Source: a virus
Lineage: Duplodnaviria; Caudoviricetes
Direction: 5' to 3' (one strand)
DNA length: 64,000 bases
IMG/VR virus record: IMGVR_UViG_3300005662_000021
Span: 1 to 64,000 of that record
Made by a program: the position numbers and the translations under genes. Within the stretch, counting starts at the first letter, position 1. Every line of letters begins with the position of its first letter. A model generated the notes under the pieces. That model worked only from the letters and a program-made list of their open reading frames with translations. It searched no databases and had not been told where the DNA came from. Below are positions 36,366-49,687 of the stretch, piece by piece.

Positions 36366-36740
36366 ATGAACACACCTAAAGATAAATTGATGAAATTCTA
36401 CCAAAAAAATGGTATCCTTGAACTTAGTAAAGTCACAGGATTAACAATAAAAGAATTAGTTGATTTATTAAATTTAAATTTCAAAACATTTGAGGATATT
36501 AACTTTATGCCCCATTATGGAGGTGTTGCAGGTAAAATTATGTTTAAAAATGGGTATGGTGCTTCGGTAATTCGTCATGAACATTCATATGGTGGTAAAA
36601 AAGGTCTTTATGAATTAGCAGTTCTTGATAATGAAGGTAATTTAACTTATGATACACCAGTTACAAATGATGTTCTTGGATTTTTAAGTCCAAAAGAAGT
36701 AACAGATTATTTAATTCAAATACAAGATTTAAAAAATTAA
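36366..36740 (+). CDS. conserved phage hypothetical protein
   Basis: FKNGYGASVI...GLYELAVL. Confidence 0.65.
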   Translation: MNTPKDKLMKFYQKNGILELSKVTGLTIKELVDLLNLNFKTFEDINFMPHYGGVAGKIMFKNGYGASVIRHEHSYGGKKGLYELAVLDNEGNLTYDTPVTNDVLGFLSPKEVTDYLIQIQDLKN

Positions 36741-36744
36741 AATT

Positions 36745-37017
36745 ATGCCTAGATTTTATCAAGAAGTAGAAGCTGAAGTTGACATAGATGTTGAAGACTT
36801 CATTTATCAATGTTCCGATAGAGATATTGAGAAAATAATCAAATGTTTGGTTGAGGAAGGTAAATTACCTAAAACATTGACAACTTATAGTAAGACTCAA
36901 AGTCTATCTCTTAGTGAAGTTACTTGGTATGAAACCATTGAAAAGATAAGAAGTAATAGATTTCTACTAAGTGATGAAGAAACTGAATTAATTGAAAAAA
37001 TAGCAAAAAGATTTTAA
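36745..37017 (+). CDS. hypothetical protein
   Basis: 90 aa ORF. Confidence 0.6.
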   Translation: MPRFYQEVEAEVDIDVEDFIYQCSDRDIEKIIKCLVEEGKLPKTLTTYSKTQSLSLSEVTWYETIEKIRSNRFLLSDEETELIEKIAKRF

Positions 37018-37083
37018 TCAAAACCCTTGACAAACCAAAGTATTAATTATATACTTTCAAAACAAATTCAAAAACAGAATATT

Positions 37084-38487
37084 ATGAACTTCTTAGACGC
37101 ATTACAAACAGAAGATACCTTAACTGAAAATGGTATGGTTACAAATTCATCAACTCTTAACGAGTGTGTGAATCTATTCTTCACCATTGGAGCAATGAGA
37201 GGACAAGACAAAGAAAGATTGTTAAGTCTATTCTCAAAGGCTTTCATTGAGAATCCTCAGACTGCATTGCGTATATTATTTTGGGCAAGAGATGTTCGTG
37301 GTGGTGCTGGTGAAAGACAAATATTCCGTGATATAATCCAACTCTTAGCAGAGGTGGCACCAGAAGTATTGGCGAAGAATATTAAATTCATTCCTGAATT
37401 CGGTCGTTGGGACGATATTACAGTCCTATTCAATACAAAAGTGAATGACGATGCGATTAACACAATAGTACAAGGTTTAGAAGCCAAAAATGGACTATGT
37501 GCAAAGTGGATGCCAAGAAAAGGAGTTATTTTTAACTCAATCAGGAAGGTTATGGGTCTTACACCAAAAACATTACGTAAAATGTTGGTAGTTCTTTCCA
37601 AAACGGTCGAGCAAAAGATGTGTGCTAACGAGTGGACAAATATTGAATACTCAAAAGTACCATCTTTGGCTATGGCTCGATACACCAAAGCATTCTCTAA
37701 ACACGATTTAACTGGTTTTGGAGTATACTTGGAATCATTGAAAAAAGGTGAGACTAAAGTAAACGCTGGGGCTGTATATCCATATGATATAGTTAAAACT
37801 TTGGGGCAAGGTGTCAAAGATTTGGCTGTAGAACAATGGAAAGCTCTTCCCAACTTTATGGAAGGAAGTACCGAAAGAATTTTACCAGTAGTTGATGTAT
37901 CAGGTTCAATGTCTACTAGTGCTGGTAACAACAATAATCTATCTTGTATGGATGTTGCAGTATCATTGGGATTGTACATTTCAGAAAGAAATGAAGGTTC
38001 TTTTAAAGACTCTTTCATTACATTCTCTGAGAGACCAAAATTACAAAAGTTGAGTGGTAATCTATATAATAGATACATACAACTACGTACTGCTGATTGG
38101 GGTATGAGTACAAACTTGGAGTCTGTGTTCAAATTGATTCTAAACCAATCAATTAAACATAATGTACCTCAAAGTGAAATGCCGACCAAAATCCTTATCT
38201 TATCGGATATGGAATTTAATCAAGCAACTGGACGTAATAATTCCGCAATTCAAATGATTCGTAAAGAATATGAGAATAGTGGATATCAACTACCTGGTAT
38301 TATCTTTTGGAACATACAATCGAGAGGAGATAACTTCCCAGTTCGTTTTGATGAAAGTGGTACAGCGTTAATATCTGGTTTTAGTCCATCAATCTTGAAG
38401 TCAATTCTTGGGGGAAAAGAACTATCACCAATATTAATTATGAATGAAACCATCGAGTCCGAAAGATATAAGATGATAGAAGTTTAA
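37084..38487 (+). CDS. TROVE-like/vWA protein (DUF2828-type, Ro60-related)
   Basis: RDVRGGAGER, GRWDD, AKWMPR, VVDVSGSM (MIDAS DxSxS), LILSDMEF, IIFWN, ISGFSP. Confidence 0.8.
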   Translation: MNFLDALQTEDTLTENGMVTNSSTLNECVNLFFTIGAMRGQDKERLLSLFSKAFIENPQTALRILFWARDVRGGAGERQIFRDIIQLLAEVAPEVLAKNIKFIPEFGRWDDITVLFNTKVNDDAINTIVQGLEAKNGLCAKWMPRKGVIFNSIRKVMGLTPKTLRKMLVVLSKTVEQKMCANEWTNIEYSKVPSLAMARYTKAFSKHDLTGFGVYLESLKKGETKVNAGAVYPYDIVKTLGQGVKDLAVEQWKALPNFMEGSTERILPVVDVSGSMSTSAGNNNNLSCMDVAVSLGLYISERNEGSFKDSFITFSERPKLQKLSGNLYNRYIQLRTADWGMSTNLESVFKLILNQSIKHNVPQSEMPTKILILSDMEFNQATGRNNSAIQMIRKEYENSGYQLPGIIFWNIQSRGDNFPVRFDESGTALISGFSPSILKSILGGKELSPILIMNETIESERYKMIEV

Positions 38488-38496
38488 AAAAATGGA

Positions 38497-38674
38497 AAAA
38501 TTGGTTTAAAAGGAATGATTACTGCAAAGTTAACACAACAAATCAATTAATCAAAATGGTAGCCGAGGATAGGTTCAAACCCTGTCACCCTCTGATAAGG
38601 AGGGGGGTTAGTCTCACTTTCCTAATCGCACGGGAATAAATTACTAACCAAAACCCATTCTGAAACCAATTTTT
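38497..38674 (+). ncRNA. CAGCAA-family stem RNA copy 1 containing a T-loop module
   Basis: AAAATTGGTTT/AAACCAATTTT outer stem, GAATG/CATTC inner stem then ATTACTGCAA; internal GATAGG-TTCAAAC-CCTGTC T-arm. Confidence 0.6.
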
Positions 38675-38731
38675 CCTATTTTTTCTTGACTTAATGAAAC
38701 TTTTAAATTAATTTTACGTTATATAGAACAA

Positions 38732-38791
38732 AGGATAGATTCAGCAAACTAAAAAAATCAAAACTTGTAAATTTGAACAAAAACTATCCTG
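38732..38791 (+). ncRNA. CAGCAA-family stem RNA copy 2
   Basis: AGGATAG/CTATCCT stem, ATTCAGCAA, A-rich loop. Confidence 0.6.
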
Positions 38792-38799
38792 ACAATTAA

Positions 38800-38863
38800 G
38801 GTTATAACGAATGACTTCAGCAACTTAAAAAAGACAGCACATCTTAAAAAATCATTCCGAACC
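38800..38863 (+). ncRNA. CAGCAA-family stem RNA copy 3
   Basis: GGTT/AACC outer, GAATGA/TCATTC inner stem, CTTCAGCAA, A-rich loop. Confidence 0.6.
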
Positions 38864-38907
38864 AAACTTTTTAATAATTTAGTAATATTTATAAACAAAT
38901 AACAAAA

Positions 38908-39003
38908 ATGAGAACATCGATAAACCATATTAGTAATTCAGTACAACCGCAATTTAAAAATTGTTGGTCAGCGGATTCTTATGGTTCAGGTGGAATCTCG
39001 TGA
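38908..39003 (+). CDS. 31-aa leader peptide candidate
   Basis: MRTSINHISNSVQPQFKNCWSADSYGSGGIS followed by a terminator. Confidence 0.45.
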   Translation: MRTSINHISNSVQPQFKNCWSADSYGSGGIS

Positions 39004-39031
39004 TGGTAAAAAAGATATTAATTTTTTATAC

Positions 39032-39064
39032 AAACCCTGGACAAAAGACGTTCAGGGTTTTTTT
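39032..39064 (+). terminator. terminator/attenuator upstream of tRNA array
   Basis: AAACCCTGGA...TTCAGGGTTT plus T-run. Confidence 0.75.
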
Positions 39065-39094
39065 GTGTTCTTTGACATCGTTGGTAAAATATAA

Positions 39095-39167
39095 TCCCCC
39101 TTGGTATAAAGGTTGATTACATCAGATTTTGAATCTGAGGATGGTGGTTCAATTCCATCAGGGGGAA
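39095..39167 (+). tRNA. tRNA-Gln(UUG)
   Basis: TCCCCCT/AGGGGGA acceptor; TCAGA-TTTTGAA-TCTGA. Confidence 0.9.
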
Positions 39168-39285
39168 CAATTTAAAGTGGTGAAATTTGACCACTTTAAA
39201 AAAAATATCAAATCTTGGAACTAATAGAACTTAAGGTTGGTTCATATAGATGAAAGTTGATTATTAAATTTTAAAATAAAAAATT

Positions 39286-39561
39286 ATGGAACTAGTAAGA
39301 AAGGGGGAATCGAGATGTTATGTATTCCGTGAAGAAGACATCCAAAAGGTATATGATACCATCAAAGAAATTGATAATTTTGAATTTGATTATATGCCTA
39401 ATAATTGGGTAACAGTTTTCAATAGTAAAGACGTACATAAAAACTATATGGTATATAATGGTAAATTTGACATTGATGTACCTAAACTGATTGACGAGTG
39501 TGGTAAAAGGGGTGTAGGTATCATTGTTAGGTCTACTAATATTCAAGATGATTGTTGGTAA
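39286..39561 (+). CDS. hypothetical protein
   Basis: 91 aa ORF. Confidence 0.6.
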   Translation: MELVRKGESRCYVFREEDIQKVYDTIKEIDNFEFDYMPNNWVTVFNSKDVHKNYMVYNGKFDIDVPKLIDECGKRGVGIIVRSTNIQDDCW

Positions 39562-39579
39562 AAAAAACTTGATAAAACA

Positions 39580-39611
39580 TTTGGAAATAAGAATATAGTG
39601 TCGTAATTTTG
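39580..39611 (+). promoter_or_regulatory. Bacteroidota-type sigma70 promoter
   Basis: TTTG-N20-TAATTTTG. Confidence 0.75.
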
Positions 39612-39615
39612 TGGA

Positions 39616-39681
39616 AGAGTAAGGAAAGGTCGTAGGTAGCACTGTCCACAACCAGCCTTAAACGTGGTGGATACTTACTCT
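39616..39681 (+). ncRNA. unclassified small structured RNA
   Basis: AGAGTAAG/CTTACTCT closing stem, TCCAC/GTGGA inner stem, starts right after promoter. Confidence 0.45.
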
Positions 39682-39711
39682 AAATTTTTTCAAACTTAAA
39701 ATATTAATTTT

Positions 39712-39903
39712 ATGACTAAAAATCAAATTTTAAATCTTGAAGTTGGGGATGTTATTCCAAATATGTTTGGTAAACTAAAAAAAGTCACAAGAATTTTACA
39801 TAAAGGAACTGACATTAATGGAAAAATGTTTGTTTATTTTTACCAAGAATTTGGGGATAGTAGTGAAATGTCTTCAACTTTAAAAGAAGGTAATCAAATA
39901 TAA
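39712..39903 (+). CDS. hypothetical protein
   Basis: 63 aa ORF. Confidence 0.55.
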   Translation: MTKNQILNLEVGDVIPNMFGKLKKVTRILHKGTDINGKMFVYFYQEFGDSSEMSSTLKEGNQI

Positions 39904-39908
39904 ATTAT

Positions 39909-39984
39909 GGTGGGATTGCCAAGTTGGTCAAGGCGAATAGCTGAAGATTATTTAATGTAGGTTCGATTCCTACTCCCACCACCA
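39909..39984 (+). tRNA. tRNA-Phe(GAA)
   Basis: GGTGGGA/TCCCACC; loop CTGAAGA; encoded CCA. Confidence 0.9.
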
Positions 39985-39999
39985 AACAACTATAAGACA

Positions 40000-40170
40000 A
40001 TGAGAAGCAAAACCGTAGATAGATTGCTGAAAAGCACACCGAAAGATGTAGAAATCTTTGTGGATTGGTATGCCGACCTGGTGGTTCGCATCAATCAGCT
40101 ATTGCGTGAAAACGACATCAGCAAAAAGGAACTCGCAGAGAAGATGGACAAAAAACCATCTGAAATTTAG
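40000..40170 (+). pseudogene. truncated XRE-family HTH regulator fragment
   Basis: LVVRINQLLRENDISKKELAEKMDKKPSEI then TAG then KW; higher GC than flanks. Confidence 0.6.
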
Positions 40171-40183
40171 AAATGGATTATAT

Positions 40184-40256
40184 GAGGTATGAACCCAAAT
40201 GGAGAGGGACAACATTGTGGATGTTGGTTTAGTGAGTTCGATTCTCATCATACCTA
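40184..40256 (+). tRNA. tRNA-His(GUG)
   Basis: G-1, AGGTATG/CATACCT; CAACA-TTGTGGA-TGTTG; A73 rather than C73. Confidence 0.85.
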
Positions 40257-40268
40257 CTTAAACAAATT

Positions 40269-40355
40269 GGAAAGTTAAGCTCGGCGGCCCGAGTCTACGT
40301 CTTGAAAACGATAGGTACAATTGTATTGTATGGGGCTCGACACCTCAGCTTTCCG
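40269..40355 (+). tRNA. tRNA-Ser(UGA)
   Basis: GGAAAG/CTTTCC; loop CTTGAAA; long variable arm; atypical T loop. Confidence 0.75.
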
Positions 40356-40364
40356 CAAATATTT

Positions 40365-40437
40365 AGTCCCATAGTTCAATGGATTAGAACCGAACAATAC
40401 GAATGTTCAAATACCCGTTCAAATCGGGTTGGGACTA
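40365..40437 (+). tRNA. tRNA-Arg(ACG)
   Basis: AGTCCCA/TGGGACT; GAACA-ATACGAA-TGTTC. Confidence 0.85.
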
Positions 40438-40445
40438 CAAAACTC

Positions 40446-40568
40446 AGTCTTGTGGCGGAATGGTAGACGCAGCTGTGATAACTTCGCTGGAAGGTGAATC
40501 TCCTTTAAAATATTAGCAGGGTCAATCAGTTCTCAGTTATCGTATAGGTTCAAATCCTATCAAGACTA
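40446..40568 (+). ncRNA. tRNA-Leu-like shell S1 (anticodon arm replaced)
   Basis: AGTCTTG/CAAGACT-A, GCGGAATGGTAGACGC D arm, T arm TATAGG-TTCAAAT-CCTAT; insert with GATAACT/AGTTATC stem. Confidence 0.75.
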
Positions 40569-40640
40569 CAAAAAAAAATTTTAAATCTTGGAACTAAATG
40601 GTGAGAGAAGGGGTTTATGTAAATGAATTTAGAAACAATT

Positions 40641-40727
40641 GGAGGATAAAGTAATCAGGGTCGTTACCACCGCCTGCTAAGCGAGTGGCACCAAGTATGG
40701 TGTGGGGTTCGTGTCCTCTGTCCTCCG
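40641..40727 (+). tRNA. tRNA-Ser(GCU)
   Basis: GGAGGAT/GTCCTCC; loop CTGCTAA; long variable arm. Confidence 0.85.
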
Positions 40728-40743
40728 CAAAAAAATATTAATA

Positions 40744-40811
40744 AGATTAGAGCAGTTGAGTTCATAACTCAAAGGAATGCAGACAGTGGAGATGAGCGAC
40801 CCACCTAATCA
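40744..40811 (+). ncRNA. unclassified small structured RNA
   Basis: GATTAG/CTAATC closing stem with GAGTT/AACTC and GTGG/CCAC hairpins. Confidence 0.4.
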
Positions 40812-40842
40812 TTTTAAATGAATAAAAAAATATTCCAAAGTG

Positions 40843-40874
40843 TTTGGAAATTAGAAAATGAAATCGTAATTTTG
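40843..40874 (+). promoter_or_regulatory. Bacteroidota-type sigma70 promoter
   Basis: TTTG-N20-TAATTTTG directly upstream of shell S2. Confidence 0.75.
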
Positions 40875-40886
40875 TGATACAATAAT

Positions 40887-41034
40887 AGTCCTGTGGCGGA
40901 ATTGGTAGACGCTATTAAGATAACTAAGGCAGTATATTTTCTCGGAGTAAATATGCAAAGTCATAGTGTTGTACAGATTATCCGAGTGACGAGTACATGC
41001 TTAATTTTTACAGGTTCGAATCCTGTCAGGACTA
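40887..41034 (+). ncRNA. tRNA-Leu-like shell S2
   Basis: AGTCCTG/CAGGACT-A, D and T arms; insert has two hairpins with complementary loops CTCGGA/TCCGAG. Confidence 0.75.
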
Positions 41035-41247
41035 CAAAAAATTAAAAAATAAAAGTTATGGACACACATTATTGGGTAAGATTTGAGATTAGAATTGAAA
41101 CTATCAACAATCAATTAACTTCTGATGAACAAAAAGAAATCTTTGACTATATAAAATCAAGAATTGACGGTAGAGATGACATAGATAGACCTAAAAAGTT
41201 GGATTGTTGTTTTGTCAATATGAGGAAATTTTAGATAAGTTAAATCA

Positions 41248-41377
41248 AGTCCTGTGGCGAAAGCTAAGGGTAGAGTGAAGATTGAATGTTCAGACACTCC
41301 TTAATACTAGGATTGGAGCGAAAGGTCTAACATAAACAATATGTAGCTTAATACGGGTTCGAATCCTGTCAGGACTA
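41248..41377 (+). ncRNA. tRNA-Leu-like shell S3 (degenerate D arm)
   Basis: AGTCCTGTGGCG...TACGGGTTCGAATCCTGTCAGGACTA; AAGCTA/TAGCTT insert stem. Confidence 0.7.
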
Positions 41378-41404
41378 TTTTTTAAACTATAAAATTAAAA
41401 TATA

Positions 41405-41617
41405 ATGAACGCAAGAAAAGAAATACTTGGAAAAATAGAAGAGTTTGAAAAACGTGTGAAGTATTGGAAAGATAGACAAATAAATTTTAAATGGACAGAA
41501 GAAACTATAAAAGAGGGTGACCCATTATTTGTAATGTGTCAAGATTTTGAACATTCTTTTAAAGAAAAAATATTACTCTTGCAATGGGTATTAGATTTAA
41601 TTAAAGATGAAAATTAA
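41405..41617 (+). CDS. hypothetical protein
   Basis: 70 aa ORF. Confidence 0.55.
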   Translation: MNARKEILGKIEEFEKRVKYWKDRQINFKWTEETIKEGDPLFVMCQDFEHSFKEKILLLQWVLDLIKDEN

Positions 41618-41956
41618 AACAAACTAATATGATAAATAAAATTTCAGCACTTTTTGCACTTTTAATCGGTATAATGTATTTTTCTTTATTTGCATACGAT
41701 ATAGAATATGACCGAGATTTAATGACTTGGTTTTGGCTATTATTTTCCGAAATTTGGTTTATGATTAGTTTACGTTTTTGGATTTTATATGATAAAAATA
41801 ATTAAAAAATGTTAGTAATTATTGGTCTTTTATTTTTGATAATTGGAATCTTATTCTTAATTTTGTCTTACAAAACAAAGAACTCAGACTTGTTTATAGT
41901 TGGAATTATATTTCTAATTGTTCTTTTGTTTGGATTTATATATGGTTTAATAATAT

Positions 41957-42031
41957 AGAGTAGTAGCGCAATTGGTAGCGCACTCGGTTTGGGACCGAGA
42001 GATTTTGCAGGTTCGAGTCCTGTCTACTCTA
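41957..42031 (+). tRNA. tRNA-Pro(UGG)
   Basis: AGAGTAG/CTACTCT; CTCGG-TTTGGGA-CCGAG. Confidence 0.9.
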
Positions 42032-42039
42032 CAAGATTT

Positions 42040-42116
42040 AGGAAAGTATCCCCTCAGCCTTATACGCCGTAGAAAGGGTAACTGGTAACATATGGGTTCG
42101 AACCCCATCTTTCCTA
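42040..42116 (+). tRNA. non-canonical D-arm-less tRNA-like RNA, anticodon UAU (Ile)
   Basis: AGGAAAG/CTTTCCT-A acceptor; loop CTTATAC; T arm ATGGG-TTCGAAC-CCCAT; only 8 nt before anticodon stem. Confidence 0.65.
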
Positions 42117-42129
42117 CAAAATTATAATA

Positions 42130-42206
42130 CGGCAAGTATACCCTCCGTCTGATACACGGTAGAAAGGTTAATTGGTTACATATAGGTTCGATTCCTATCT
42201 TGCCGA
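42130..42206 (+). tRNA. non-canonical D-arm-less tRNA-like RNA, anticodon GAU (Ile)
   Basis: CGGCAAG/CTTGCCG-A; CCGT-CTGATAC-ACGG; T arm ATAGG-TTCGATT-CCTAT; paralog of 42040. Confidence 0.7.
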
Positions 42207-42215
42207 CAACAATAA

Positions 42216-42289
42216 GTCTCAGTAACTCAGTGGTTTAGAGTTCTCGACTGTTAATCGAGTGGTCGTAGGTTCGAATCCTACCTGGGACG
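42216..42289 (+). tRNA. tRNA-Asn(GUU)
   Basis: GTCTCAG/CTGGGAC; loop CTGTTAA. Confidence 0.92.
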
Positions 42290-42305
42290 CAAATTTTAAT
42301 AAATT

Positions 42306-42533
42306 ATGGTTAATGTAAAAATTGGTGAATTTAAGGTTGGTGATAAGTTGTTTATTGATTATAGTGAAGATAATCCAAACAATAAACACATCGAAATTAG
42401 AGCAATTGTGGATATGGAGGTGGTGATTTATTTGGATGACAAAAATAACTACCATATGGAACCAATTCATTACTTCAATGTGTTATGTAGATGTCACTCA
42501 CTTAAAAAAATAACAAATGAAACGGACAATTAG
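42306..42533 (+). CDS. hypothetical protein
   Basis: 75 aa ORF. Confidence 0.55.
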   Translation: MVNVKIGEFKVGDKLFIDYSEDNPNNKHIEIRAIVDMEVVIYLDDKNNYHMEPIHYFNVLCRCHSLKKITNETDN

Positions 42534-42672
42534 AAAACCAAGTTCTGCAAAGTTTTATGAAATGCTTAGAAATAAGTACAACAACTACATTAAGAAACAA
42601 GAAAATGAAATGGAAGATTCTACAAATTAGATTCCAACCTAAAAAATTTAATTAACAATATATAATTTTCAT

Positions 42673-43182
42673 ATGAAAAAAGAGTTTTTATTTAATGATA
42701 ACATTATTGATTTTGAATTTGACGAAGTAATAGATAAAAAAATAAATGTTAAGGTATTTCACTATTTCAATAATAATCTTTTATTTGAAAAAATTGATGA
42801 TAGAATAATTTGTCTTAAAGGTATTGGTAAATTATTCTTTCAAGAAGGATTCCCAATTTCATTATCTATTTCAAAATTAAAAGAACAAGGGGTTGAGGTT
42901 AGTATATTACACGTTGCTGATGAATGTTTAAAAAATGGGTGGTCACCAATCACAACATATAATAAATTAAAATCTGACTTTGAAGAAGATATTGACAAAG
43001 AAAATCATTATGATTTACATTTATTAAAAAAATTTTGTGAATCAAATTATGAAGACCAAAGAGAAATGATATTTGAATATCTGTTTAAATGCAAAACTGA
43101 TGATGTTAGAAATAAAAAAAATGAAAATCCAATAAATTGGTTACAATCACTTGTAACTAGTGGGGCTAAAAATAAACTTTAA
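42673..43182 (+). CDS. hypothetical protein
   Basis: 169 aa ORF. Confidence 0.65.
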   Translation: MKKEFLFNDNIIDFEFDEVIDKKINVKVFHYFNNNLLFEKIDDRIICLKGIGKLFFQEGFPISLSISKLKEQGVEVSILHVADECLKNGWSPITTYNKLKSDFEEDIDKENHYDLHLLKKFCESNYEDQREMIFEYLFKCKTDDVRNKKNENPINWLQSLVTSGAKNKL

Positions 43183-43191
43183 CAAGAAAAT

Positions 43192-43266
43192 GACCCTGTA
43201 GCTTAGCTGGTTTAAAGCACAATACTTTTAATATTGGGAGCGGGAGTTCGAATCTCCCCAGGGTCA
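43192..43266 (+). tRNA. tRNA-Lys(UUU)
   Basis: GACCCTG/CAGGGTC; CAATA-CTTTTAA-TATTG. Confidence 0.92.
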
Positions 43267-43275
43267 CAACACAAT

Positions 43276-43360
43276 GTCCTTATGGTGTAATGGTTAAACA
43301 TCCCACTCTTACAAAGTGGAGACGAGAAGTATAATCCTAGTTCGAATCTAGGTAAGGACA
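43276..43360 (+). tRNA. tRNA-Val(UAC) with enlarged variable region
   Basis: GTCCTTA/TAAGGAC; CCACT-CTTACAA-AGTGG; ~16-nt variable region. Confidence 0.85.
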
Positions 43361-43388
43361 CATTAAATGATTTTTAAAATATAAAAAA

Positions 43389-43637
43389 ATGAAAAAAATA
43401 TTATTTCTTGGTTTGATATCTGTATTATTCCTTAGTTGCAAAAGAGAAGCTAAAGAAGAAATAGAAACAGATAATACTAATTATAGTGTTGAACTTCTAT
43501 TTGAAGTTGATGGATGTAAAGTCTATCGATTTTTGGATGGTGAATTCCATTATTTCACAACTTGTAATGGTTCTGTAACTCATAAAAGTAATGAAAAAAA
43601 CTCCAAAGATTTGGAAATACAAACCGTTGTGAAATAA
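43389..43637 (+). CDS. lipoprotein (DUF4884-like)
   Basis: lipobox LFLSC; YSVELLFEVDGCKVYRF. Confidence 0.6.
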   Translation: MKKILFLGLISVLFLSCKREAKEEIETDNTNYSVELLFEVDGCKVYRFLDGEFHYFTTCNGSVTHKSNEKNSKDLEIQTVVK

Positions 43638-43643
43638 AGATTT

Positions 43644-43705
43644 GAACAATTAAGGGACCGAGCCTGCCTACAATTTCGGTGTGAGGTGCTAGTAGGTAAT
43701 TGTTC
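43644..43705 (+). ncRNA. candidate pseudoknotted small RNA
   Basis: GAACAATTA/TAATTGTTC; ACCGA/TCGGT hairpin; loop CCTAC complementary to 3' GTAGG. Confidence 0.45.
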
Positions 43706-43718
43706 TTTATGTTATAAT

Positions 43719-43852
43719 AGTACCACGAGGCATCCCATAAGAACTGCTCACTGCTGTGGTCTTGTTGCTTGTAAACGAATAGCCCAAGGTATAAGTTAGG
43801 AAGCTTAACTCAACCTATCCCCCACTGACGAGTGGGGTGAAGTTGGGGGATT
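43719..43852 (+). ncRNA. unclassified structured RNA
   Basis: ACCAC/GTGGT, AGTTA/TAACT, CCCCACT/AGTGGGG hairpins; GC-rich intergenic. Confidence 0.4.
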
Positions 43853-43868
43853 AAAAAAGAAACAATAG

Positions 43869-43954
43869 GGTCGGGTGGCCGAGTTGGTTAAGGCACTAGT
43901 CTGCAAAACTATCGAATGAAAAATTCATCGTGGGTTCAAATCCCTCCCCGACCT
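43869..43954 (+). tRNA. tRNA-Cys(GCA) with long variable arm
   Basis: GGTCGGG/CCCGACC-U73; loop CTGCAAA; GAAT/ATTC variable stem. Confidence 0.88.
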
Positions 43955-44015
43955 CAAAAAAAAAGTTCAGTTAGTTATTTTTACTCATTTTGTTGATATT
44001 TATATATATATATAT

Positions 44016-44765
44016 ATGAAATGGAATGATAACGATATTGAAAAATTAATTGATTTGGTTAATCAAGGATTAAAACCAAATAGTATTGCTGAAATTTTTG
44101 GGGTTACGTATAAAACGATAACTAATAAAATGTTTAGATTGGGTTTACAAGTAGTTTATACAACAAATAAAACTTGTAAAAATTGTGGAAATACATTTGA
44201 GTCTTATTTAAGTAAAAACAAATTATTTTGTAATTCATCTTGTTCAACAACGTTTAATAATAAAAAACGTAAACATAGTGAAGAAACTAAAAATAAAATA
44301 TCAAAAACATTAAAAAGTAAACCAACTAAACCAACTAAGCCTACTAAACCTAAAGTTGGTAAAATAAAAACTTGTAGGATTTGTAATAATAAAGTTATTG
44401 AAAAGTACAAAATTGTTTGTACTAATTGTAGGTTAGAGTATTATCAATATTATAGACCTTCTTGTACTTTTCAATTTAATGTAAAGGATTATCCACAAGA
44501 ATTTGATTTAATTTTAATTGAACAATATGGATGGTATTCTCCAACAAATAAAAAAAATAATTTGGTTGGAGTCACAAAAGACCATAAATATTCAGTGATG
44601 GAAGGTTATAGAAATAAAATAGACCCTAATATTTTATCTCATCCAGCAAATTGTGAATTACTTTTATTTTCGGATAATTCGTCTAAAAATGGTAAATCGT
44701 CTTTAACATTAACCGAATTGCTTGAAAATATTGAAATTTGGAATAAGAAATACGGAAATATTTAA
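44016..44765 (+). mobile_element. free-standing putative homing endonuclease gene
   Basis: N-terminal HTH, CxxC zinc ribbons, NUMOD3-like KHSEETKNKIS, DHKYS...HPANC; between tRNA-Cys and tRNA-Trp. Confidence 0.6.
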
Positions 44766-44793
44766 AAGTTATTATTATCTTTACAAAACATAT

Positions 44794-44868
44794 GGGAATG
44801 TAGCTCAATTGGATTAGAGTAGTGGATTCCAGACCCACAGGTTATAGGTTCGAGTCCTATCGTTCTCG
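44794..44868 (+). tRNA. tRNA-Trp(CCA)
   Basis: GGGAATG/CGTTCTC; loop TTCCAGA. Confidence 0.88.
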
Positions 44869-44899
44869 CAAATTTTATCAACAATTTAAAATACTTATT

Positions 44900-45211
44900 A
44901 TGGTAAGGGATTACATAATCGAAACATTAAAGAAAATCAAGGAACACGATGAGAAGGTGCACAAGTTGTATGATATGGGAGTTGATTTACTTGACTTTAA
45001 CAATACCACGTCCCAACTTGAGAAGTCTATTCCGACCATCCTCAGAAAAGAAAAAGACGAATCATACGGATGGATACAGGATTTAGTTGGTTGGTGGTTG
45101 TATGAAAATATTGAAAAAAAGATTTGGTATGATGAAATTGAAGTTAATGTTGAAAGTGTCGAAGATTTTACCGACTATTTATTAAAAGAGTACAGCTCTA
45201 TTAATGAATAA
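44900..45211 (+). CDS. hypothetical protein
   Basis: start reassigned to MVRDYIIE (upstream ORF part overlaps tRNA-Trp). Confidence 0.6.
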   Translation: MVRDYIIETLKKIKEHDEKVHKLYDMGVDLLDFNNTTSQLEKSIPTILRKEKDESYGWIQDLVGWWLYENIEKKIWYDEIEVNVESVEDFTDYLLKEYSSINE

Positions 45212-45222
45212 TCGTTTAAACT

Positions 45223-46560
45223 ATGAAAATTTTCTATTCAATTTTACTAATCTTTTTACCTTTTTTAATTTATTCCCAAGGTCTTATAATAAATGAAATA
45301 TCAAATGGTGATTCTGGAAACAGAGAATATTTTGAGTTAGTTGTTATTGGCTCGACTTCAAACCCTACAATAAGTGTAGACTTGGGTGGATGGATAATAG
45401 ATGATAATAATGGAGATTTTGAAGGTGTTTTAAGTGGGGTTGGTACAGCTCAAGGTCATATAAGAATTAAACCAGGATGTTTATCTAATGTAAAACCTGG
45501 GTCAATTATTTTAATTTATAATAGTGCTGATGTTAATCCCACTTTTGGGATAACTCCAGACCCATTAGATTTTGATGGTGATTGTGTTTATATTTTACCA
45601 ATAAGTGATTTGTGTTTGGATAATACATCAAATTTACCAACAACAACAAATCCATTGTATACTCCAGTTAGTTATACCGCAACAAGAATTTGGGATAGGA
45701 TTGGATTTAGAAATGATGGTGATGCCGCACAAGTTAGAAGTCCAAATGGTTTATTTTTTCACGGATTTTCATACGGGGATGTGTCAACCCCATTTCCCAC
45801 TTTTCCATTTGGTGGTTCATCTTTTAATATTATAACAGGGAGTGGATTACAAAGAAATTATTTTTTCAATAGTGGTAGTTTTGGAGCAAAAGTCAATTTC
45901 AGTAGAGGTGTTGCCCCAACAAATGAAACTCCAGGTCAACCAAATAATGATGCCAATAGATATTTTATAAATTCATTAAGAATTGGGACTTATAATTATT
46001 CAAACTTATTAGACCCAATTAATATTGGTTCATCAACAACATTGGTTGATTGTGGGACAATATTACCAATTGGTATAATTGAATTTAAGGGAACAAAAAT
46101 TAACGATAATGTCAATCTTCAATGGACGCTTGATAATGTCACAGAAGTCAATTATATTGAGTTGGAGAAGAGTTCAAATGGTTATGATTTCTATCCCATT
46201 TCTGAGATTTATCCTTATGATTTAACAATGAATTATATTGATGATTTGACTTACTCAGAAAATTATTATAGACTTAAAATTGTTGAATATAGTGGTGATA
46301 TAACTTATAGTAATATTATTAATATCTCAAATAAAATTAACGATGATGTATTAATATATCCCAATCCAACAAAAGATATATTGAATATAAAAACAATCAA
46401 AAATATTAATAGAATTTCACTATTTAATGAACTTGGGGTTGAATTTGTTATTGAGAATCCGACATCTCAAATTGATTTATCCTCATTGTCAAAAGGAATT
46501 TATATAGTTAAGATTAATATTGATGAGAATACAATTATTAAAAAAATAATATTAATTTAA
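45223..46560 (+). CDS. secreted protein with T9SS type A C-terminal sorting domain
   Basis: signal peptide; LIINE lamin-tail-like start; LPIGIIEFKG...YYRLK; IYPNPT...LSKGIYIVKI. Confidence 0.8.
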   Translation: MKIFYSILLIFLPFLIYSQGLIINEISNGDSGNREYFELVVIGSTSNPTISVDLGGWIIDDNNGDFEGVLSGVGTAQGHIRIKPGCLSNVKPGSIILIYNSADVNPTFGITPDPLDFDGDCVYILPISDLCLDNTSNLPTTTNPLYTPVSYTATRIWDRIGFRNDGDAAQVRSPNGLFFHGFSYGDVSTPFPTFPFGGSSFNIITGSGLQRNYFFNSGSFGAKVNFSRGVAPTNETPGQPNNDANRYFINSLRIGTYNYSNLLDPINIGSSTTLVDCGTILPIGIIEFKGTKINDNVNLQWTLDNVTEVNYIELEKSSNGYDFYPISEIYPYDLTMNYIDDLTYSENYYRLKIVEYSGDITYSNIINISNKINDDVLIYPNPTKDILNIKTIKNINRISLFNELGVEFVIENPTSQIDLSSLSKGIYIVKINIDENTIIKKIILI

Positions 46561-47202
46561 ATGGCTTATATTGAAGGTAATTTTTTCCCCTTAAAGGTAT
46601 ATGTTCGAAATGAATATCTATATCAAAATAAGAAGGGATTTGGTGAATTTACTGAGGGTGTTATAATATCAATTAGATGTTTACCAGGACAAGCGGCACT
46701 ATTCCAAGTATTATTTAATAATGGTGTTATGAGAGATAAACTTCCATCTCACGCATTATTAACTGAACCAAAATTACCTGATGTTGATTTACCATTCCAT
46801 TATCTTCAAATATGGAATTGTTTTTCATATAATTTCTCGGTACATCATTTAAGTTATGTCTATGATACCAGAGTTTCAGTCTTTATGAAAGATAAGAAAT
46901 GGTATGATGGAAGTTATTATGCCACAATAAATTGGGGTTCTAGTGATTTGAATAGTGATTTTACCTTGGCTGAAGACCCAATGGAACATAAGTCACACCA
47001 TATATTACTACTAGATAATGGCCAGATTGCCCTACAACCGAATAATAGGATAAGATGGTCAGAACCATCCTTTGTCACAAAATCTTTCCCTGAGAGACCT
47101 GATTATTTGGTTAATAAGGATTATTATAATTGTGAGGGTTATGATAAGTGGGCGACCGAGGATTCTGAGTATATGTTTTATGATACAAATGAAAATAAAT
47201 AA
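46561..47202 (+). CDS. conserved phage hypothetical protein
   Basis: YVRNEYLY, HKSHHILLLDNGQIALQPNNRI. Confidence 0.7.
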   Translation: MAYIEGNFFPLKVYVRNEYLYQNKKGFGEFTEGVIISIRCLPGQAALFQVLFNNGVMRDKLPSHALLTEPKLPDVDLPFHYLQIWNCFSYNFSVHHLSYVYDTRVSVFMKDKKWYDGSYYATINWGSSDLNSDFTLAEDPMEHKSHHILLLDNGQIALQPNNRIRWSEPSFVTKSFPERPDYLVNKDYYNCEGYDKWATEDSEYMFYDTNENK

Positions 47203-47211
47203 TTTTTAAAT

Positions 47212-47727
47212 ATGACACCAATGGTAATTGTAAATTTCTATAAACCCTATGATACAACTTGGGAACTACTCCAACTAATGGCATTGGATAAAATTGCCGA
47301 ACACGAAAAGGAAACAAGTGAAGTTGAATTTGGAGATGTATCCGTTCAACAACAATTTGATGATTATCGTGCAGCTTGTTTTCAAGGGTTAAAAACATTT
47401 ATAATGCAAGTTTTAAATGAATGGGGAACTGAAAACATCTTGGTGTTTAATGATAAATTCTATAAGAAATTTGAACATATGGAAATGGAGGGTAGATTAA
47501 AAACTTATACAACTCCCAATGTTTTCAAAACATCAAAAGAATTATTCAAATGTTTAAAGAAAGAAAAGTTTCAGTTAGAACCAGATGATTTTGATTTCAT
47601 TCACGAAACTTTTTCAAGTGCTGATGATGTTGTGTGTAATATATTCGCATTTGAATATGAATTAAAAGAAATTGATGATGATAAGGATTGGTTAGATGAG
47701 AACGGATTTGGTGATATTTTAGAATAA
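47212..47727 (+). CDS. hypothetical protein
   Basis: 171 aa ORF. Confidence 0.65.
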   Translation: MTPMVIVNFYKPYDTTWELLQLMALDKIAEHEKETSEVEFGDVSVQQQFDDYRAACFQGLKTFIMQVLNEWGTENILVFNDKFYKKFEHMEMEGRLKTYTTPNVFKTSKELFKCLKKEKFQLEPDDFDFIHETFSSADDVVCNIFAFEYELKEIDDDKDWLDENGFGDILE

Positions 47728-47742
47728 AAAAAAGATAATAAT

Positions 47743-47955
47743 ATGAAAACAATAGGCGTATTAGAAGCATTGAAAGATGAAACAATTAAAAAAGGAGATA
47801 AAATAATTATTGAACTTATTGTTGATGAAATAGATATTGAAAGTATGTACCCATTATCTGCATTTTGTTTTAATAAATATGATGAAATATCAAAAACTAA
47901 TTATTTTAAATTGTCATGGAGTACTAAAATAAAAATAAAAGACAATAATAGTTAA
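47743..47955 (+). CDS. hypothetical protein
   Basis: 70 aa ORF. Confidence 0.5.
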   Translation: MKTIGVLEALKDETIKKGDKIIIELIVDEIDIESMYPLSAFCFNKYDEISKTNYFKLSWSTKIKIKDNNS

Positions 47956-48028
47956 TTTTTTTTGTAACCAACTTGACCTTTTGTATTATATCGTTATATT
48001 TAATAAAAAAATAGTAAAAACTTCACAA

Positions 48029-48100
48029 ATGAAACACAATCTCTATATGGACTTAACGACTGGAGCTGAGGGTAGAAATCCTCGGATGGAGATGGTATAA
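48029..48100 (+). CDS. 23-aa leader peptide candidate
   Basis: MKHNLYMDLTTGAEGRNPRMEMV followed by a terminator. Confidence 0.4.
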   Translation: MKHNLYMDLTTGAEGRNPRMEMV

Positions 48101-48127
48101 TATAAGGTTTTAATTGTTAATAAAATC

Positions 48128-48164
48128 AAATCCATCTTCCTAAAAAAAAGATGGATTTTTTTTT
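48128..48164 (+). terminator. terminator/attenuator
   Basis: AAATCCATCTT...AAGATGGATTT plus T-run. Confidence 0.75.
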
Positions 48165-48173
48165 GTCACAGAG

Positions 48174-48204
48174 TTTGGGAATTAGAAATGGTTTTGTAAC
48201 TTTG
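48174..48204 (+). promoter_or_regulatory. Bacteroidota-type sigma70 promoter
   Basis: TTTG-N19-TAACTTTG. Confidence 0.7.
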
Positions 48205-48208
48205 TGGT

Positions 48209-48688
48209 ATGAGAAAACAAACACCATACATATCCTCTTCGGTCGCCATAAAAGGGATTAATGATTCAGGACTTGCAAAGTCTGAAACAAACGATTGTGT
48301 AGTTAGAGCTTTTGCTTCAGCTTTCAACGTGACTTATGATTTTGCTCACAAAAAGGTTGCTGAAATATTTGGAAGAAAAAACGGACAAGGAACTTATTGT
48401 TTTAGTTTGGTGATGAGGTCTTTGGAAAGTAAAGGAATTAGTGTTAATAGAAAAAAAATTAAAACAATAAGTAAAGATGTGAACCTTTCTTATTGGATTA
48501 AGGTTAAAGGTGTAAACACTTTGAGAAGTATGACAACTGCAAAGTTTTTGGAGGATTATCCCAAAGGAACTTACATAGTCACAGTCAAAGGTCACGCTTT
48601 TACAATTAAAGATGGGGTGGTGATTGGAAATCCTGATGATGCAACAAAGAGAAAAAAAACTATCTATGGAGCTTGGAAAATTGGATAA
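48209..48688 (+). CDS. conserved phage hypothetical protein
   Basis: NDCVVRAFASAF...KGHAFTIKDG. Confidence 0.7.
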   Translation: MRKQTPYISSSVAIKGINDSGLAKSETNDCVVRAFASAFNVTYDFAHKKVAEIFGRKNGQGTYCFSLVMRSLESKGISVNRKKIKTISKDVNLSYWIKVKGVNTLRSMTTAKFLEDYPKGTYIVTVKGHAFTIKDGVVIGNPDDATKRKKTIYGAWKIG

Positions 48689-48737
48689 GATTACCTACTT
48701 TTGTGATGTTCATTGAAATTGAGGGAAAAATATTAAA

Positions 48738-48811
48738 GGGCTATTGGTGTAGTGGTCGAACATGCCACCCTGTCACGGTGGAGAACAGGGGTTCAAATCC
48801 CCTATAGCTCG
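48738..48811 (+). tRNA. tRNA-Asp(GUC)
   Basis: GGGCTAT/ATAGCTC; CCACC-CTGTCAC-GGTGG. Confidence 0.92.
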
Positions 48812-48824
48812 CAATACTTTAATT

Positions 48825-49404: not shown

Positions 49405-49420
49405 CAAAAAAATAAAAAAC

Positions 49421-49678: not shown

Positions 49679-49687
49679 TGAGACAAT

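What the first reader, a model, noticed from the sequence alone, without database searches (positions are those of the whole stretch)
37084..38863. TROVE/vWA (Ro60-like) gene followed by three copies of a CAGCAA stem RNA: candidate phage Ro/Y-RNA-like RNP
Seen: directly after the stop codon are three elements built as stem-[A/C]TTCAGCAA (or ATTACTGCAA)-variable loop-A-run-complementary stem. The stems differ in sequence but all pair (GAATG/CATTC, AGGATAG/CTATCCT, GAATGA/TCATTC), which is compensatory variation. Copy 1 holds a T-loop arm, copies 2-3 have short A-rich loops, and a probable fourth copy lies at 53801-53984. Established: Ro60/TROVE proteins bind a bulged stem of Y RNAs, bacterial YrlA RNAs contain tRNA-like modules, and both are linked to RNA repair. 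Inference: a phage RNP in which one protein binds a constant stem displaying interchangeable RNA payloads (decoys or scaffolds).
Basis: partly seen in the sequence, partly recalled or inferred. Interest (0 to 1): 0.85.

Follow-up and report, generated by a model that had tools for sequence, protein, structure and literature searches.

The report
Partner RNAs of Ro60-like phage protein
A freshwater phage encodes a ring-shaped Ro60-like protein followed by three small folded RNAs that share one conserved "handle"; the same protein-RNA pairing recurs in very different phages, so these are most likely its Y-RNA-like partners, in an RNA family I found in neither Rfam nor the papers searched.

Summary
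Three of the four reported elements are real. The gene (37084-38487) belongs to Pfam DUF2828+DUF7788 and PHROG 850; its model has the Ro60 fold (TM 0.63-0.65) with a complete MIDAS motif. Each RNA (38513-38660, 38733-38789, 38809-38857) has a 6-bp terminal stem opening with G-C, a single-stranded (A/C)UUC(A/U)GCAA next to the 5' arm, and a variable payload.

All 77 related viral contigs with enough flanking DNA carry such elements within about 650 nt of the stop codon; 68 meet strict criteria. The stems covary, and the neighbouring protein genes are not conserved. A covariance model hit only these sites in 548 kb.

The handle also lies beside the homologous gene in Listeria, Mycobacterium and Campylobacter phages, and elsewhere in the same genome in Felix O1-like and KVP40 phages.

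The proposed fourth copy (53801-53984) is a different conserved RNA-like region. Rfam has no matching family. The handle is not the YrlA motif. It resembles Dictyostelium Class I RNAs, below threshold.

Four metatranscriptomes contain the locus. Protein-RNA binding is inferred, not shown.

This scan has reported the same pairing many times on other DNA (232 notes, at least 158 genomes), so this window is one more instance.

The parts
37027..37055 (+). Promoter-like site TTGACA-17-TATACT ahead of the Ro60-like gene
   Evidence: Consensus scan, 11 of 12 matches. RNA-library contigs of 4 runs begin at 37072-37108 and none covers 36500-37034; this is a weak hint only.
37084..38487 (+). Ro60-like ring protein gene (467 aa): DUF2828 N-terminal helical repeat ring plus DUF7788 vWA domain with MIDAS
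   Evidence: Pfam PF11443 (5e-38) and PF25043 (6e-50), not TROVE. PHROG 850 'RNA-binding protein', 9e-157. AF2 pLDDT 92, pTM 0.91. Foldseek finds Ro60 structures 1yvr, 1yvp, 2i91 and 9nep at TM 0.63-0.65, E 1e-8 to 1e-9, over the full length. D271, S273, S275, T343 and D375 are invariant in 60 homologs.
38513..38660 (+). Partner RNA 1 (about 148 nt): the handle is arms 38513-18/38655-60 plus UUACUGCAA 38519-27. The payload is a T-arm-like hairpin (38568-86), hairpin 2 (38588-38604) and a conserved hairpin 3 (38606-49).
   Evidence: Fold at -35.5 kcal/mol, z -2.25. An alignment of 10 relatives keeps the closing stem and shows 8 pairs with compensatory changes; L006 lacks the T-arm and hairpin 2. 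RNA contigs of two studies end at 38666.
38688..38726 (+). Conserved spacer with a possible internal promoter for RNAs 2 and 3 (TTGACT ... TAATTTTA ... TATATA)
   Evidence: The spacer is 88% identical across 7 relatives, more conserved than the RNA payloads. It was not called by the sigma-70 scan. The promoter reading is inference.
38733..38789 (+). Partner RNA 2 (57 nt plus tail UGAC to 38793): GGAUAG-AUU-CAGCAA-36 nt-CUAUCC
   Evidence: R1 57.2 bits (a seed member). Orthologous copies occur in relatives with stems GGAUAG, GGGAUAG and others. Rfam RF01414 gives 21.0 bits in register. Covered by RNA contig 38635-38862.
38809..38857 (+). Partner RNA 3 (49 nt plus tail CGAAC to 38862): GAAUGA-CUU-CAGCAA-28 nt-UCAUUC
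   Evidence: R1 45.3 bits (a seed member). Orthologs carry GAAUGA or GAAUGG stems. An RNA contig ends at 38862.
39032..39067 (+). Intrinsic terminator closing the unit, after a 31-codon ORF at 38909-39004 and before the tRNA array
   Evidence: The terminator scan finds 11 pairs followed by a U-run. An RNA contig ends at 39064.

Best explanation
The locus encodes a Ro60/Y-RNA-type ribonucleoprotein built from a divergent branch of the Ro60 fold.

Shown:
- The protein is a ring of helical repeats closed by a vWA/MIDAS domain.
- Three neighbouring RNA elements share a handle: a 6-bp terminal helix opening with G-C, then a single-stranded UNC(A/U)GCAA directly 3' of the 5' arm, often with a YG after the 3' arm.
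- This handle, not any neighbouring protein gene, is what stays linked to the gene family across phages of Proteobacteria, Firmicutes, Actinobacteria and Campylobacterota.

Inferred:
- The unit is transcribed from the promoter at 37027, and possibly from a second one before RNA 2. It ends at the terminator at 39032, and the RNAs are released by processing.
- The protein recognises the handle, as Ro60 recognises the conserved 5' strand of the Y RNA stem.
- The variable payloads (an A-rich linker, hairpins, a T-arm look-alike) gate the ring or tether it to other factors such as exoribonucleases or tRNA-handling and RNA-repair enzymes.
- Given the adjoining tRNA array and RNA-repair genes, the likely role is RNA quality control or counter-defence during infection.
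For: - Fold: AF2 pLDDT 92. Ro60 structures are the top full-length matches in the PDB and Swiss-Prot libraries. The MIDAS residues are invariant.
- Linkage: elements lie 20-650 nt after the stop codon in all 77 related contigs with at least 150 nt of downstream DNA. 68 meet strict criteria; the other 9 have A-U closing pairs, two G.U pairs or a CAGCAC variant.
- Specificity: model R1 gave 76 hits at E<1e-3 in 548 kb, all on the gene's strand just downstream of the gene.
- Stem enrichment: 76% of motifs in the downstream zone have an in-register stem, against 27% elsewhere; within 90 nt the figures are 43% and 7%.
- Covariation: 4 of 6 pairs show double changes.
- Neighbouring ORFs are conserved in only 0-17 of the 80 loci.
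- Distant phages: Listeria LMTA-57 has 3 elements upstream of the gene, mycobacteriophage LeBron 3 downstream, Campylobacter F365 2 upstream, KVP40 at least 3 about 7 kb away beside a tRNA, and wV8 has 4 among its tRNAs.
- A link to Y RNAs: the middle LeBron element matches Rfam YrlA through its T/D arms, 39.8 bits, E 8e-6.
- Expression: contigs from four metatranscriptomes in four studies cover 37072-39064.
- Literature: P100-like Listeria phage CKA15 has three hyper-transcribed unannotated regions within 2 kb upstream of its Rsr-like gene, and the protein is found in virions (PMC12282133). Felix O1-like Bas63 gp130, Ro60-like and directly upstream of the tRNAs, counters the Ppl defence (PMC11482910).
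- Context in the window: cyclic-phosphate cREC, HD and RNA ligase genes lie downstream of the tRNA array.
Against: - No experiment shows that this protein binds these RNAs.
- The protein is not a Pfam TROVE member. Its profile touches Ro60 sequences only at the MIDAS motif (E 0.02).
- The RNAs score against neither Y_RNA nor YrlA and lack the GNCGAA/CGAA motif used by canonical bacterial and phiLo Ro60 (PMC4201824, PMC12135203).
- Only assembled contigs, not raw reads, were available from the RNA libraries. RNA ends, strand and abundance are therefore unknown, and DNA carry-over cannot be excluded.
- In KVP40 the elements are not adjacent to the gene.
- Seed elements were chosen by requiring pairing, so the 100% paired figure is partly by construction.
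Confidence: 0.72

Rival explanations
1. The elements are cis-acting signals of the operon, such as RNase processing sites, stabilisers of the mRNA 3' end, or autoregulatory operators bound by the protein on its own transcript. On this reading they are not free-standing partner RNAs.
For: In the window they lie in the 3' untranslated region, between the stop codon and the terminator, with no sigma-70 promoter call of their own. One RNA contig spans copy 1's end through copy 3, which fits co-transcription.
Against: Their position relative to the gene is not fixed: upstream in Listeria and Campylobacter phages, interleaved with tRNAs in wV8, and 7 kb away in KVP40. They occur in 1-4 copies with unrelated payloads of up to about 275 nt. 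Payloads include tRNA-like modules of the kind found in free Y RNAs. The spacer before copy 2 is conserved like a promoter.
Confidence: 0.12
2. They are protein-independent small RNAs of the tRNA island. Examples would be tRNA-fragment-like decoys for host anticodon nucleases, or substrates or guides for the RNA-repair enzymes, with linkage to DUF2828 reflecting only shared residence in tRNA/RNA-repair islands.
For: They lie next to a tRNA array of more than 24 genes and RNA-repair genes. T-arm look-alikes occur in copy 1, KVP40, wV8 and LeBron.
Against: Across 80 loci the elements track the gene's stop codon while tRNAs and other neighbours come and go. LeBron and the Campylobacter phage carry the elements next to the gene without a large array. 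Most elements have no tRNA-like part.
Confidence: 0.08
3. They are DNA-level repeats, such as recombination or homing sites or remnants of a mobile element, and not RNAs.
For: They are short inverted repeats in a region that carries HNH endonuclease genes.
Against: They always lie on the gene's strand. Pairing is kept through compensatory changes while the arm sequences differ. Some relatives use G.U pairs that would be A.C on the other strand. The asymmetric single-stranded motif is conserved. RNA libraries contain the region.
Confidence: 0.02

Closest known systems
Ro60 (Rsr) with Y RNAs: animal Ro60-Y RNA, D. radiodurans Rsr-Yrn1, Salmonella and mycobacteriophage Rsr-YrlA/YrlB (Chen et al. 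2014, PMC4201824; Rfam RF02553), Thermus phage phiLo Ro60-Yrl1/2 (PMC12135203; PDB 9KOP, 9L5Y)
   Same: The protein has the same ring-plus-vWA/MIDAS fold. The RNA genes lie next to the protein gene. The RNA ends pair into a stem, with a short conserved recognition motif on the 5' side. The payloads are variable, and in some members they mimic tRNA T/D arms. The systems sit in tRNA and RNA-repair contexts.
   Different: The protein falls in Pfam DUF2828/DUF7788, not TROVE, and is about 13% identical to Ro60. The recognition motif is single-stranded UNC(A/U)GCAA after a covarying 6-bp stem, not GGUCCGA or GNCGAA in a bulged helix. The window's RNAs do not score against the Y_RNA or YrlA models. 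There are usually several RNAs per locus, many only 50-65 nt long.
Dictyostelium Class I RNAs (Rfam RF01414; Kjellin et al. 2021, PMC7919456)
   Same: Both have a 6-bp terminal stem that covaries with an invariant 5' G paired to a 3' C. Both carry an unpaired ..UUACAGCAA directly after the 5' arm, an A/U-rich variable middle, UG after the 3' arm and a length of about 50-65 nt. The RF01414 model hit only these elements in the DNA scanned, and in register (21.0, 23.1, 28.8 and 30.7 bits).
   Different: All scores are below the gathering score of 41.5. The spacing is one nucleotide shorter. The window's copies read (A/C)UUCAGCAA and AUUACUGCAA. There is no DUSE promoter. The hosts are phages rather than amoebae. 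The only named Class I partner is the RRM protein Rnp1A. I could not establish whether dictyostelids encode a DUF2828 protein.
Phage-encoded stable small RNAs in tRNA clusters (e.g. T4 species 1 and 2 RNAs)
   Same: They are small structured non-tRNA RNAs transcribed and processed together with phage tRNA arrays (own knowledge).
   Different: These RNAs have no shared handle motif and no dedicated partner protein gene. This comparison was not tested here.

Membership tests
Ro60 / TROVE proteins | Toroid of HEAT-like helical repeats closed by a C-terminal vWA domain | tested here: met
   The AF2 model (pLDDT 92) aligns over its full length to 1yvr, 1yvp, 2i91, 9nep and 2nvo at TM 0.50-0.65, Foldseek probability 1.0.
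Ro60 / TROVE proteins | Sequence match to Pfam TROVE (PF05731) | tested here: not met
   hmmscan returns only DUF2828 and DUF7788. The family profile touches Ro60 chains only at the MIDAS motif, E 0.02.
Ro60 / TROVE proteins | MIDAS motif DxSxS...T...D in the vWA domain | tested here: met
   D271, S273, S275, T343 and D375 are invariant in 60 homologs.
Ro60 / TROVE proteins | Binds Y RNA stems and misfolded RNA ends | not testable with these tools
   This needs EMSA, RIP or a solved structure.
YrlA / bacterial Y RNA (RF02553) | Covariance-model score at or above the gathering score (69 bits) | tested here: not met
   There is no YrlA or Y_RNA hit at E<=10 in 38400-39100. A distant relative's element (LeBron) reaches 39.8 bits.
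YrlA / bacterial Y RNA (RF02553) | GNCGAAN0-1G Ro-binding motif near the 5' end (PMC4201824) | tested here: not met
   The 5' regions read GAAUGAUUACUGCAA, GGAUAGAUUCAGCAA and GAAUGACUUCAGCAA.
YrlA / bacterial Y RNA (RF02553) | tRNA-like module with T and D arms | tested here: inconclusive
   Copy 1 has a T-arm-like hairpin but no D arm. Copies 2 and 3 have neither.
YrlA / bacterial Y RNA (RF02553) | Encoded beside a Ro60-type gene | tested here: met
   The elements start 26-322 nt after the stop codon, and the same holds in the related loci.
Dictyostelium Class I RNA (RF01414) | 6-bp stem joining the 5' and 3' ends, with an invariant 5' G | tested here: met
   G-C in 38 of 38 sequences, while the other pairs covary.
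Dictyostelium Class I RNA (RF01414) | 11-nt motif CCUUACAGCAA next to the 5' arm | tested here: inconclusive
   The core CAGCAA and the preceding U(U) are present. The window has AUUCAGCAA, CUUCAGCAA and UUACUGCAA, one nucleotide closer to the stem. Relatives have UUACAGCAA.
Dictyostelium Class I RNA (RF01414) | Score at or above the gathering score (41.5 bits); Kjellin's working cut-off was 25 | tested here: not met
   Window copy 2 scores 21.0 bits. The best relatives score 30.7 and 28.8 bits.
Dictyostelium Class I RNA (RF01414) | DUSE promoter about 60 nt upstream; occurrence in Dictyostelia | tested here: not met
   The sequence is a phage contig from freshwater metagenomes with bacterial-type promoter and terminator signals.
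DUF2828-linked 'CAGCAA-handle' RNAs (undescribed; defined here by model R1 and by motif plus stem) | G-C-closed 6-bp terminal stem, 3-nt linker, C(A/U)GCAA, variable payload, on the gene's strand near a DUF2828 gene | tested here: met
   Copies 1-3. The family recurs in 77 of 77 usable loci and in 5 distant phages.

The most novel reading that the evidence does not exclude
The phage 'CAGCAA-handle' RNAs and the Class I RNAs of dictyostelid amoebae are one RNA family. On this reading, Class I RNAs, reported as unique to Dictyostelia and of unknown mechanism, would be Y-RNA-like partners of a Ro60-fold protein. They could have been acquired from, or share ancestry with, the DUF2828 systems of phages and bacteria that the amoebae eat.
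Probability: 0.08. Interest if true: 0.9.

Novelty: new variant of a known kind. Interest (0 to 1): 0.66.

Why it matters
Ro60-Y RNA particles are a classic but still poorly understood RNA-surveillance machine. The DUF2828 branch is very large: 6891 clusters at 50% identity and 711 phage records. It includes model phages with tractable hosts (Felix O1/Bas63, P100/A511, KVP40, LeBron).

Knowing its cognate RNAs and their minimal handle makes several things directly testable:
- what the ring recognises;
- what the interchangeable payloads recruit;
- whether the reported anti-defence activity of Bas63 gp130 against Ppl (PMC11482910) needs the RNAs.

It would also explain the unannotated 'spacers' in many phage tRNA arrays, and the hyper-abundant transcripts seen in Listeria phage CKA15 (PMC12282133). 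If the Class I resemblance reflects homology, it would give a mechanism to an orphan eukaryotic RNA class.

Tried and rejected
- Fourth copy at 53801-53984: rejected as a family member.
- Rfam at gathering threshold on the window and on 20 loci returned only tRNAs. Scans at E<=10 gave no Y_RNA or YrlA hit in the window.
- Sequence search of the PDB with the single protein gave nothing meaningful.
- No whole genome is held for the window.
- Does Dictyostelium encode a DUF2828 protein? The AlphaFold cluster library hides organisms. Swiss-Prot folds show only Ro60s and no DUF2828 entry. The proteome files in the Kjellin supplement are truncated, and their only DVSGSM hit is an unrelated Ras/vWA protein. 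Paper searches gave nothing. The question stays open.
- The Avesson 2011 paper, which names the four Class I-binding proteins, is not held.
- Literature search for the motif string returned only primers and barcodes.
- MAFFT could not keep the 3' arms of very divergent elements in register, so I built no family-wide second model and counted stems by script instead.
- PADLOC gave no defence-system match for the protein.
- The RNA libraries are available only as assembled contigs. Stretches without cover (36500-37034, 39068-39388) and coincident contig ends are hints at best.
- I did not verify by sequence that Bas63 gp130 is the ortholog of wV8 gene 47; Bas63 was not among the rows listed.
Full report
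**What is there**

The window is an AT-rich phage sequence found in freshwater metagenomes. It carries a large tRNA array at 39095-55442. Upstream of the array, an ORF at 37084-38487 encodes a 467-aa protein.

The ORF follows a near-consensus TTGACA-17-TATACT site at 37027-37055. After the stop codon come three elements on the same strand. A 31-codon ORF and a strong intrinsic terminator (39032-39067) then close the unit, just before the first tRNA.

**The protein**

- Pfam places it in DUF2828 (PF11443) plus DUF7788 (PF25043), not in TROVE.
- PHROGs calls it phrog_850, 'RNA-binding protein'.
- The family is very large. It has 6891 representative clusters at 50% identity and 711 phage records, covering Vibrio/KVP40-like, Felix O1-like, Listeria, Staphylococcus, Enterococcus, Bacillus, Campylobacter and Mycobacterium phages. 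Mycobacteriophage annotators already label it 'Ro-like RNA binding protein'.
- An AlphaFold2 model built from 60 homologs is confident (pLDDT 92, pTM 0.91).
- Its best full-length structural matches are Ro60 from Xenopus, human and Deinococcus, and the Ro60 of Thermus phage phiLo. TM-scores are 0.50-0.65, E is about 1e-9 and identity is about 13%.
- The vWA MIDAS residues (D271, S273, S275, T343, D375) are invariant.
- At the sequence level, the family profile reaches Ro60 only weakly, at the MIDAS motif (E 0.02).

So this is a divergent branch of the Ro60 fold. Others have reached that conclusion by HHpred or structure comparison (PMC12282133, PMC11482910).

**The three RNAs**

Each has the same plan: a 6-nt 5' arm starting with G, three linker nucleotides, C(A/U)GCAA, a variable middle, the complementary 3' arm ending in C, and then U/C-G-A.

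| RNA | 5' arm | Core motif | 3' arm |
|---|---|---|---|
| RNA 1 | 38513-18 | CUGCAA 38522-27 | 38655-60 |
| RNA 2 | 38733-38 | CAGCAA 38742-47 | 38784-89 |
| RNA 3 | 38809-14 | CAGCAA 38818-23 | 38852-57 |

- In RNA 1 the sixth pair is A.C; the alternative register is GGAAUG/CAUUCU.
- RNA 1 (about 148 nt) folds into the closing stem, an unpaired motif and linker, a T-arm-like hairpin (38568-86, loop UUCAAAC), a second hairpin and a third hairpin.
- In ten relatives the closing stem and hairpin 3 are kept, with compensatory changes. One relative (L006) lacks the T-arm and hairpin 2 through a 53-nt deletion, and more distant relatives have other inserts. The payload is therefore modular.
- RNAs 2 and 3 have A-rich middles without strong structure.

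**Is it more than chance?**

- TTCAGCAA is over-represented in the window, 9 occurrences against 2.3 expected.
- I fetched 80 viral contigs encoding relatives of the protein at 98-59% identity. All 77 with at least 150 nt of downstream DNA carry motif-bearing elements within about 650 nt of the stop codon.
- 68 of them meet strict criteria: an arm starting with G, six in-register pairs, at most one G.U, and a C at the end. The other nine have A-U closing pairs, two G.U pairs or a CAGCAC variant.
- In an alignment of 38 short elements, four of the six stem pairs show double compensatory changes and the first pair is always G-C. Sliding the partner by one column drops pairing to about 50%. The seed was selected for pairing, so the 100% figure is partly by construction.
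- As an unselected control, 76% of distinct C(A/U)GCAA sites in the downstream zone have an in-register 6-bp stem within 300 nt, against 27% elsewhere in the same loci. Within 90 nt the figures are 43% and 7%.
- The covariance model R1, run over the window with filters off, scores only RNAs 2 and 3 (57 and 45 bits; next best 18).
- Over 548 kb of loci, R1 gave 76 hits at E<1e-3, all on the gene's strand just downstream of it.
- The protein-coding neighbours of the window's gene are conserved in only 0-17 of the 80 loci. The RNAs are the only constant companions of the gene.

**Distant phages**

The same handle lies beside the homologous gene in phages of unrelated hosts.

| Phage | Elements | Position |
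|---|---|---|
| Listeria LMTA-57 | three (..UAACAGCAA.., ending CUGU) | upstream of the gene |
| Mycobacteriophage LeBron (GC-rich) | three | downstream of the gene |
| Campylobacter F365 | two | upstream of the gene |
| Felix O1-like wV8 | four | between the tRNA genes that follow the gene |
| KVP40 | at least three | about 7 kb from the gene, beside a tRNA |

- Two elements in KVP40 and wV8 carry T-arm payloads, and one of these also carries a D-arm payload.
- The middle LeBron element matches Rfam YrlA through its T/D arms (39.8 bits, E 8e-6, below the gathering score of 69). This ties the family by architecture to bacterial Y RNAs.

**Comparison with known RNA families**

- Rfam at gathering threshold finds only tRNAs in the window and in 20 loci.
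- Canonical bacterial and phage Y RNAs (YrlA; phiLo Yrl1/2) are recognised through a GNCGAA/CGAA motif (PMC4201824, PMC12135203). That motif is absent here, and neither Y_RNA nor YrlA scores in 38400-39100 at E<=10.
- The only Rfam model that lights up on the elements is Dictyostelium Class I RNA (RF01414). It does so in register, and nowhere else in the DNA scanned. Scores are 21.0 bits (window RNA 2), 23.1 (Listeria), and 30.7 and 28.8 (two relatives), all below the gathering score of 41.5.
- Class I RNAs are defined by a covarying 6-bp terminal stem with an invariant 5' G, the motif CCUUACAGCAA next to the 5' arm, a variable middle, a CUGU end and a length of about 60 nt. They were reported as unique to Dictyostelia (PMC7919456).
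- The resemblance is real at the feature level. However, the spacing differs by one nucleotide and the promoter context is different. I also could not find out whether dictyostelids have a DUF2828 protein.
- An earlier instance of this scan was later re-checked, and the bold reading was given 6 in 100. I keep it at about 8%.

**Expression**

- Only assembled contigs of metatranscriptomes were available. Contigs from four RNA libraries in four studies cover 37072-39064. None covers 36500-37034, upstream of the promoter-like site.
- Contigs end at 38666 (two studies), 38862 and 39064. These positions are five nucleotides after the 3' arms of RNA 1 and RNA 3, and at the terminator.
- This is compatible with a transcription unit running from 37027 to 39067 that is processed at the RNA ends. 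Contigs cannot prove ends, strand or abundance, and DNA carry-over is not excluded.
- The spacer before RNA 2 is more conserved than the payloads and may hold a second promoter.
- Published data on relatives help. Listeria phage CKA15 shows three hyper-transcribed unannotated regions within 2 kb upstream of its Rsr-like gene, whose product is also found in virions (PMC12282133).

**Likely function**

By analogy with Ro60, the handle would dock on the ring, and the payload would gate the cavity or tether partners such as PNPase (PMC4201824, PMC12135203).

The window places the unit next to the tRNA array. It is upstream of a cyclic-phosphate-processing cREC domain protein, an HD protein and an RNA ligase. 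This is the RNA-repair context noted for ROT/TROVE proteins in jumbo phages (PMC7824862).

In Felix O1-like Bas63, deleting the Ro60-like gene directly upstream of the tRNAs sensitises the phage to the Ppl defence (PMC11482910). I did not verify orthology by sequence, although the gene is present in all 251 Felix O1-like records matched. A role in RNA surveillance, repair or counter-defence during infection is therefore the best guess. It remains inference.

**The rejected fourth copy**

The region 53798-53990 is conserved in three relatives at 71-87% identity and has covarying hairpins. However, the supposed motif changes at positions that are invariant in the family, the supposed 5' arm forms a local hairpin, and R1 does not score it. 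It is a different conserved RNA-like element, lying between a tRNA-like gene and tRNA-Arg.

**Standing within this scan**

After I had reached the reading above, the scan's notebook showed that the same protein-RNA pairing has been reported many times on other DNA: 232 notes in at least 158 genomes, covering phages, giant viruses, bacteria and an archaeal contig. The conclusions were the same, including the Class I resemblance. Those notes are not independent evidence.

This window is one more, cleanly organised instance. It has three RNAs in a single promoter-to-terminator unit with the gene. It also adds metatranscriptome coverage and a natural payload-deletion variant.

Noticed in passing
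window 40446-40568, 53437-53582, 53684-53797 (also 49688-49780, 42130-42206): These tRNA-like genes are far too long (93-146 nt) and score weakly against the tRNA model (31-41 bits). They have normal acceptor, D and T arms but large foreign inserts, and one carries a second T-arm.
   Followed up: partly
window 53798-53990: A conserved structured region lies between a tRNA-like gene and tRNA-Arg. It is 71-87% identical in three relatives, has several covarying hairpins and matches no Rfam family. It is not a CAGCAA-handle RNA.
   Followed up: partly
window 55960-56382, 56385-56966, 59488-60498: An RNA-repair gene set lies at the far end of the tRNA array: a cyclic-phosphate-processing receiver domain (cREC_REC), an HD-domain protein, and an RNA ligase with a PHA02142 OB-fold.
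   Followed up: partly
window 38909-39067: A 31-codon ORF is followed by a strong terminator just before the first tRNA. The ORF is conserved in only 6 close relatives.
   Followed up: no
window 45223-46560: A protein with a Por/T9SS C-terminal sorting domain lies inside the tRNA island. Together with the lack of a Shine-Dalgarno sequence before the Ro-like gene, this hints at a Bacteroidota host.
   Followed up: no
window 50198-50779, 54165-54770: HNH endonuclease genes are interspersed among the tRNA genes.
   Followed up: no
L084:961-1512 (Listeria phage LMTA-57): A ROOL RNA match (88.5 bits, just under the gathering score of 99.1) lies about 1 kb upstream of the DUF2828 gene and its three handle RNAs, among tRNAs and near an RtcB ligase gene. 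It may be one of the hyper-transcribed regions reported for phage CKA15.
   Followed up: no
L041-L082, e.g. L045:4848-5108, L063:4500-4751, L022:4629-4909: Many relatives carry a long handle RNA (230-275 nt) directly after a short one. Its large internal core is strongly conserved and matches no Rfam family.
   Followed up: no
L021:5131-5339; L057:6749-7240 and L069:6735-7226: A group I intron (51.5 bits) and phage-encoded tmRNAs (85-87 bits) lie a few kb downstream of the DUF2828 gene in relatives.
   Followed up: no
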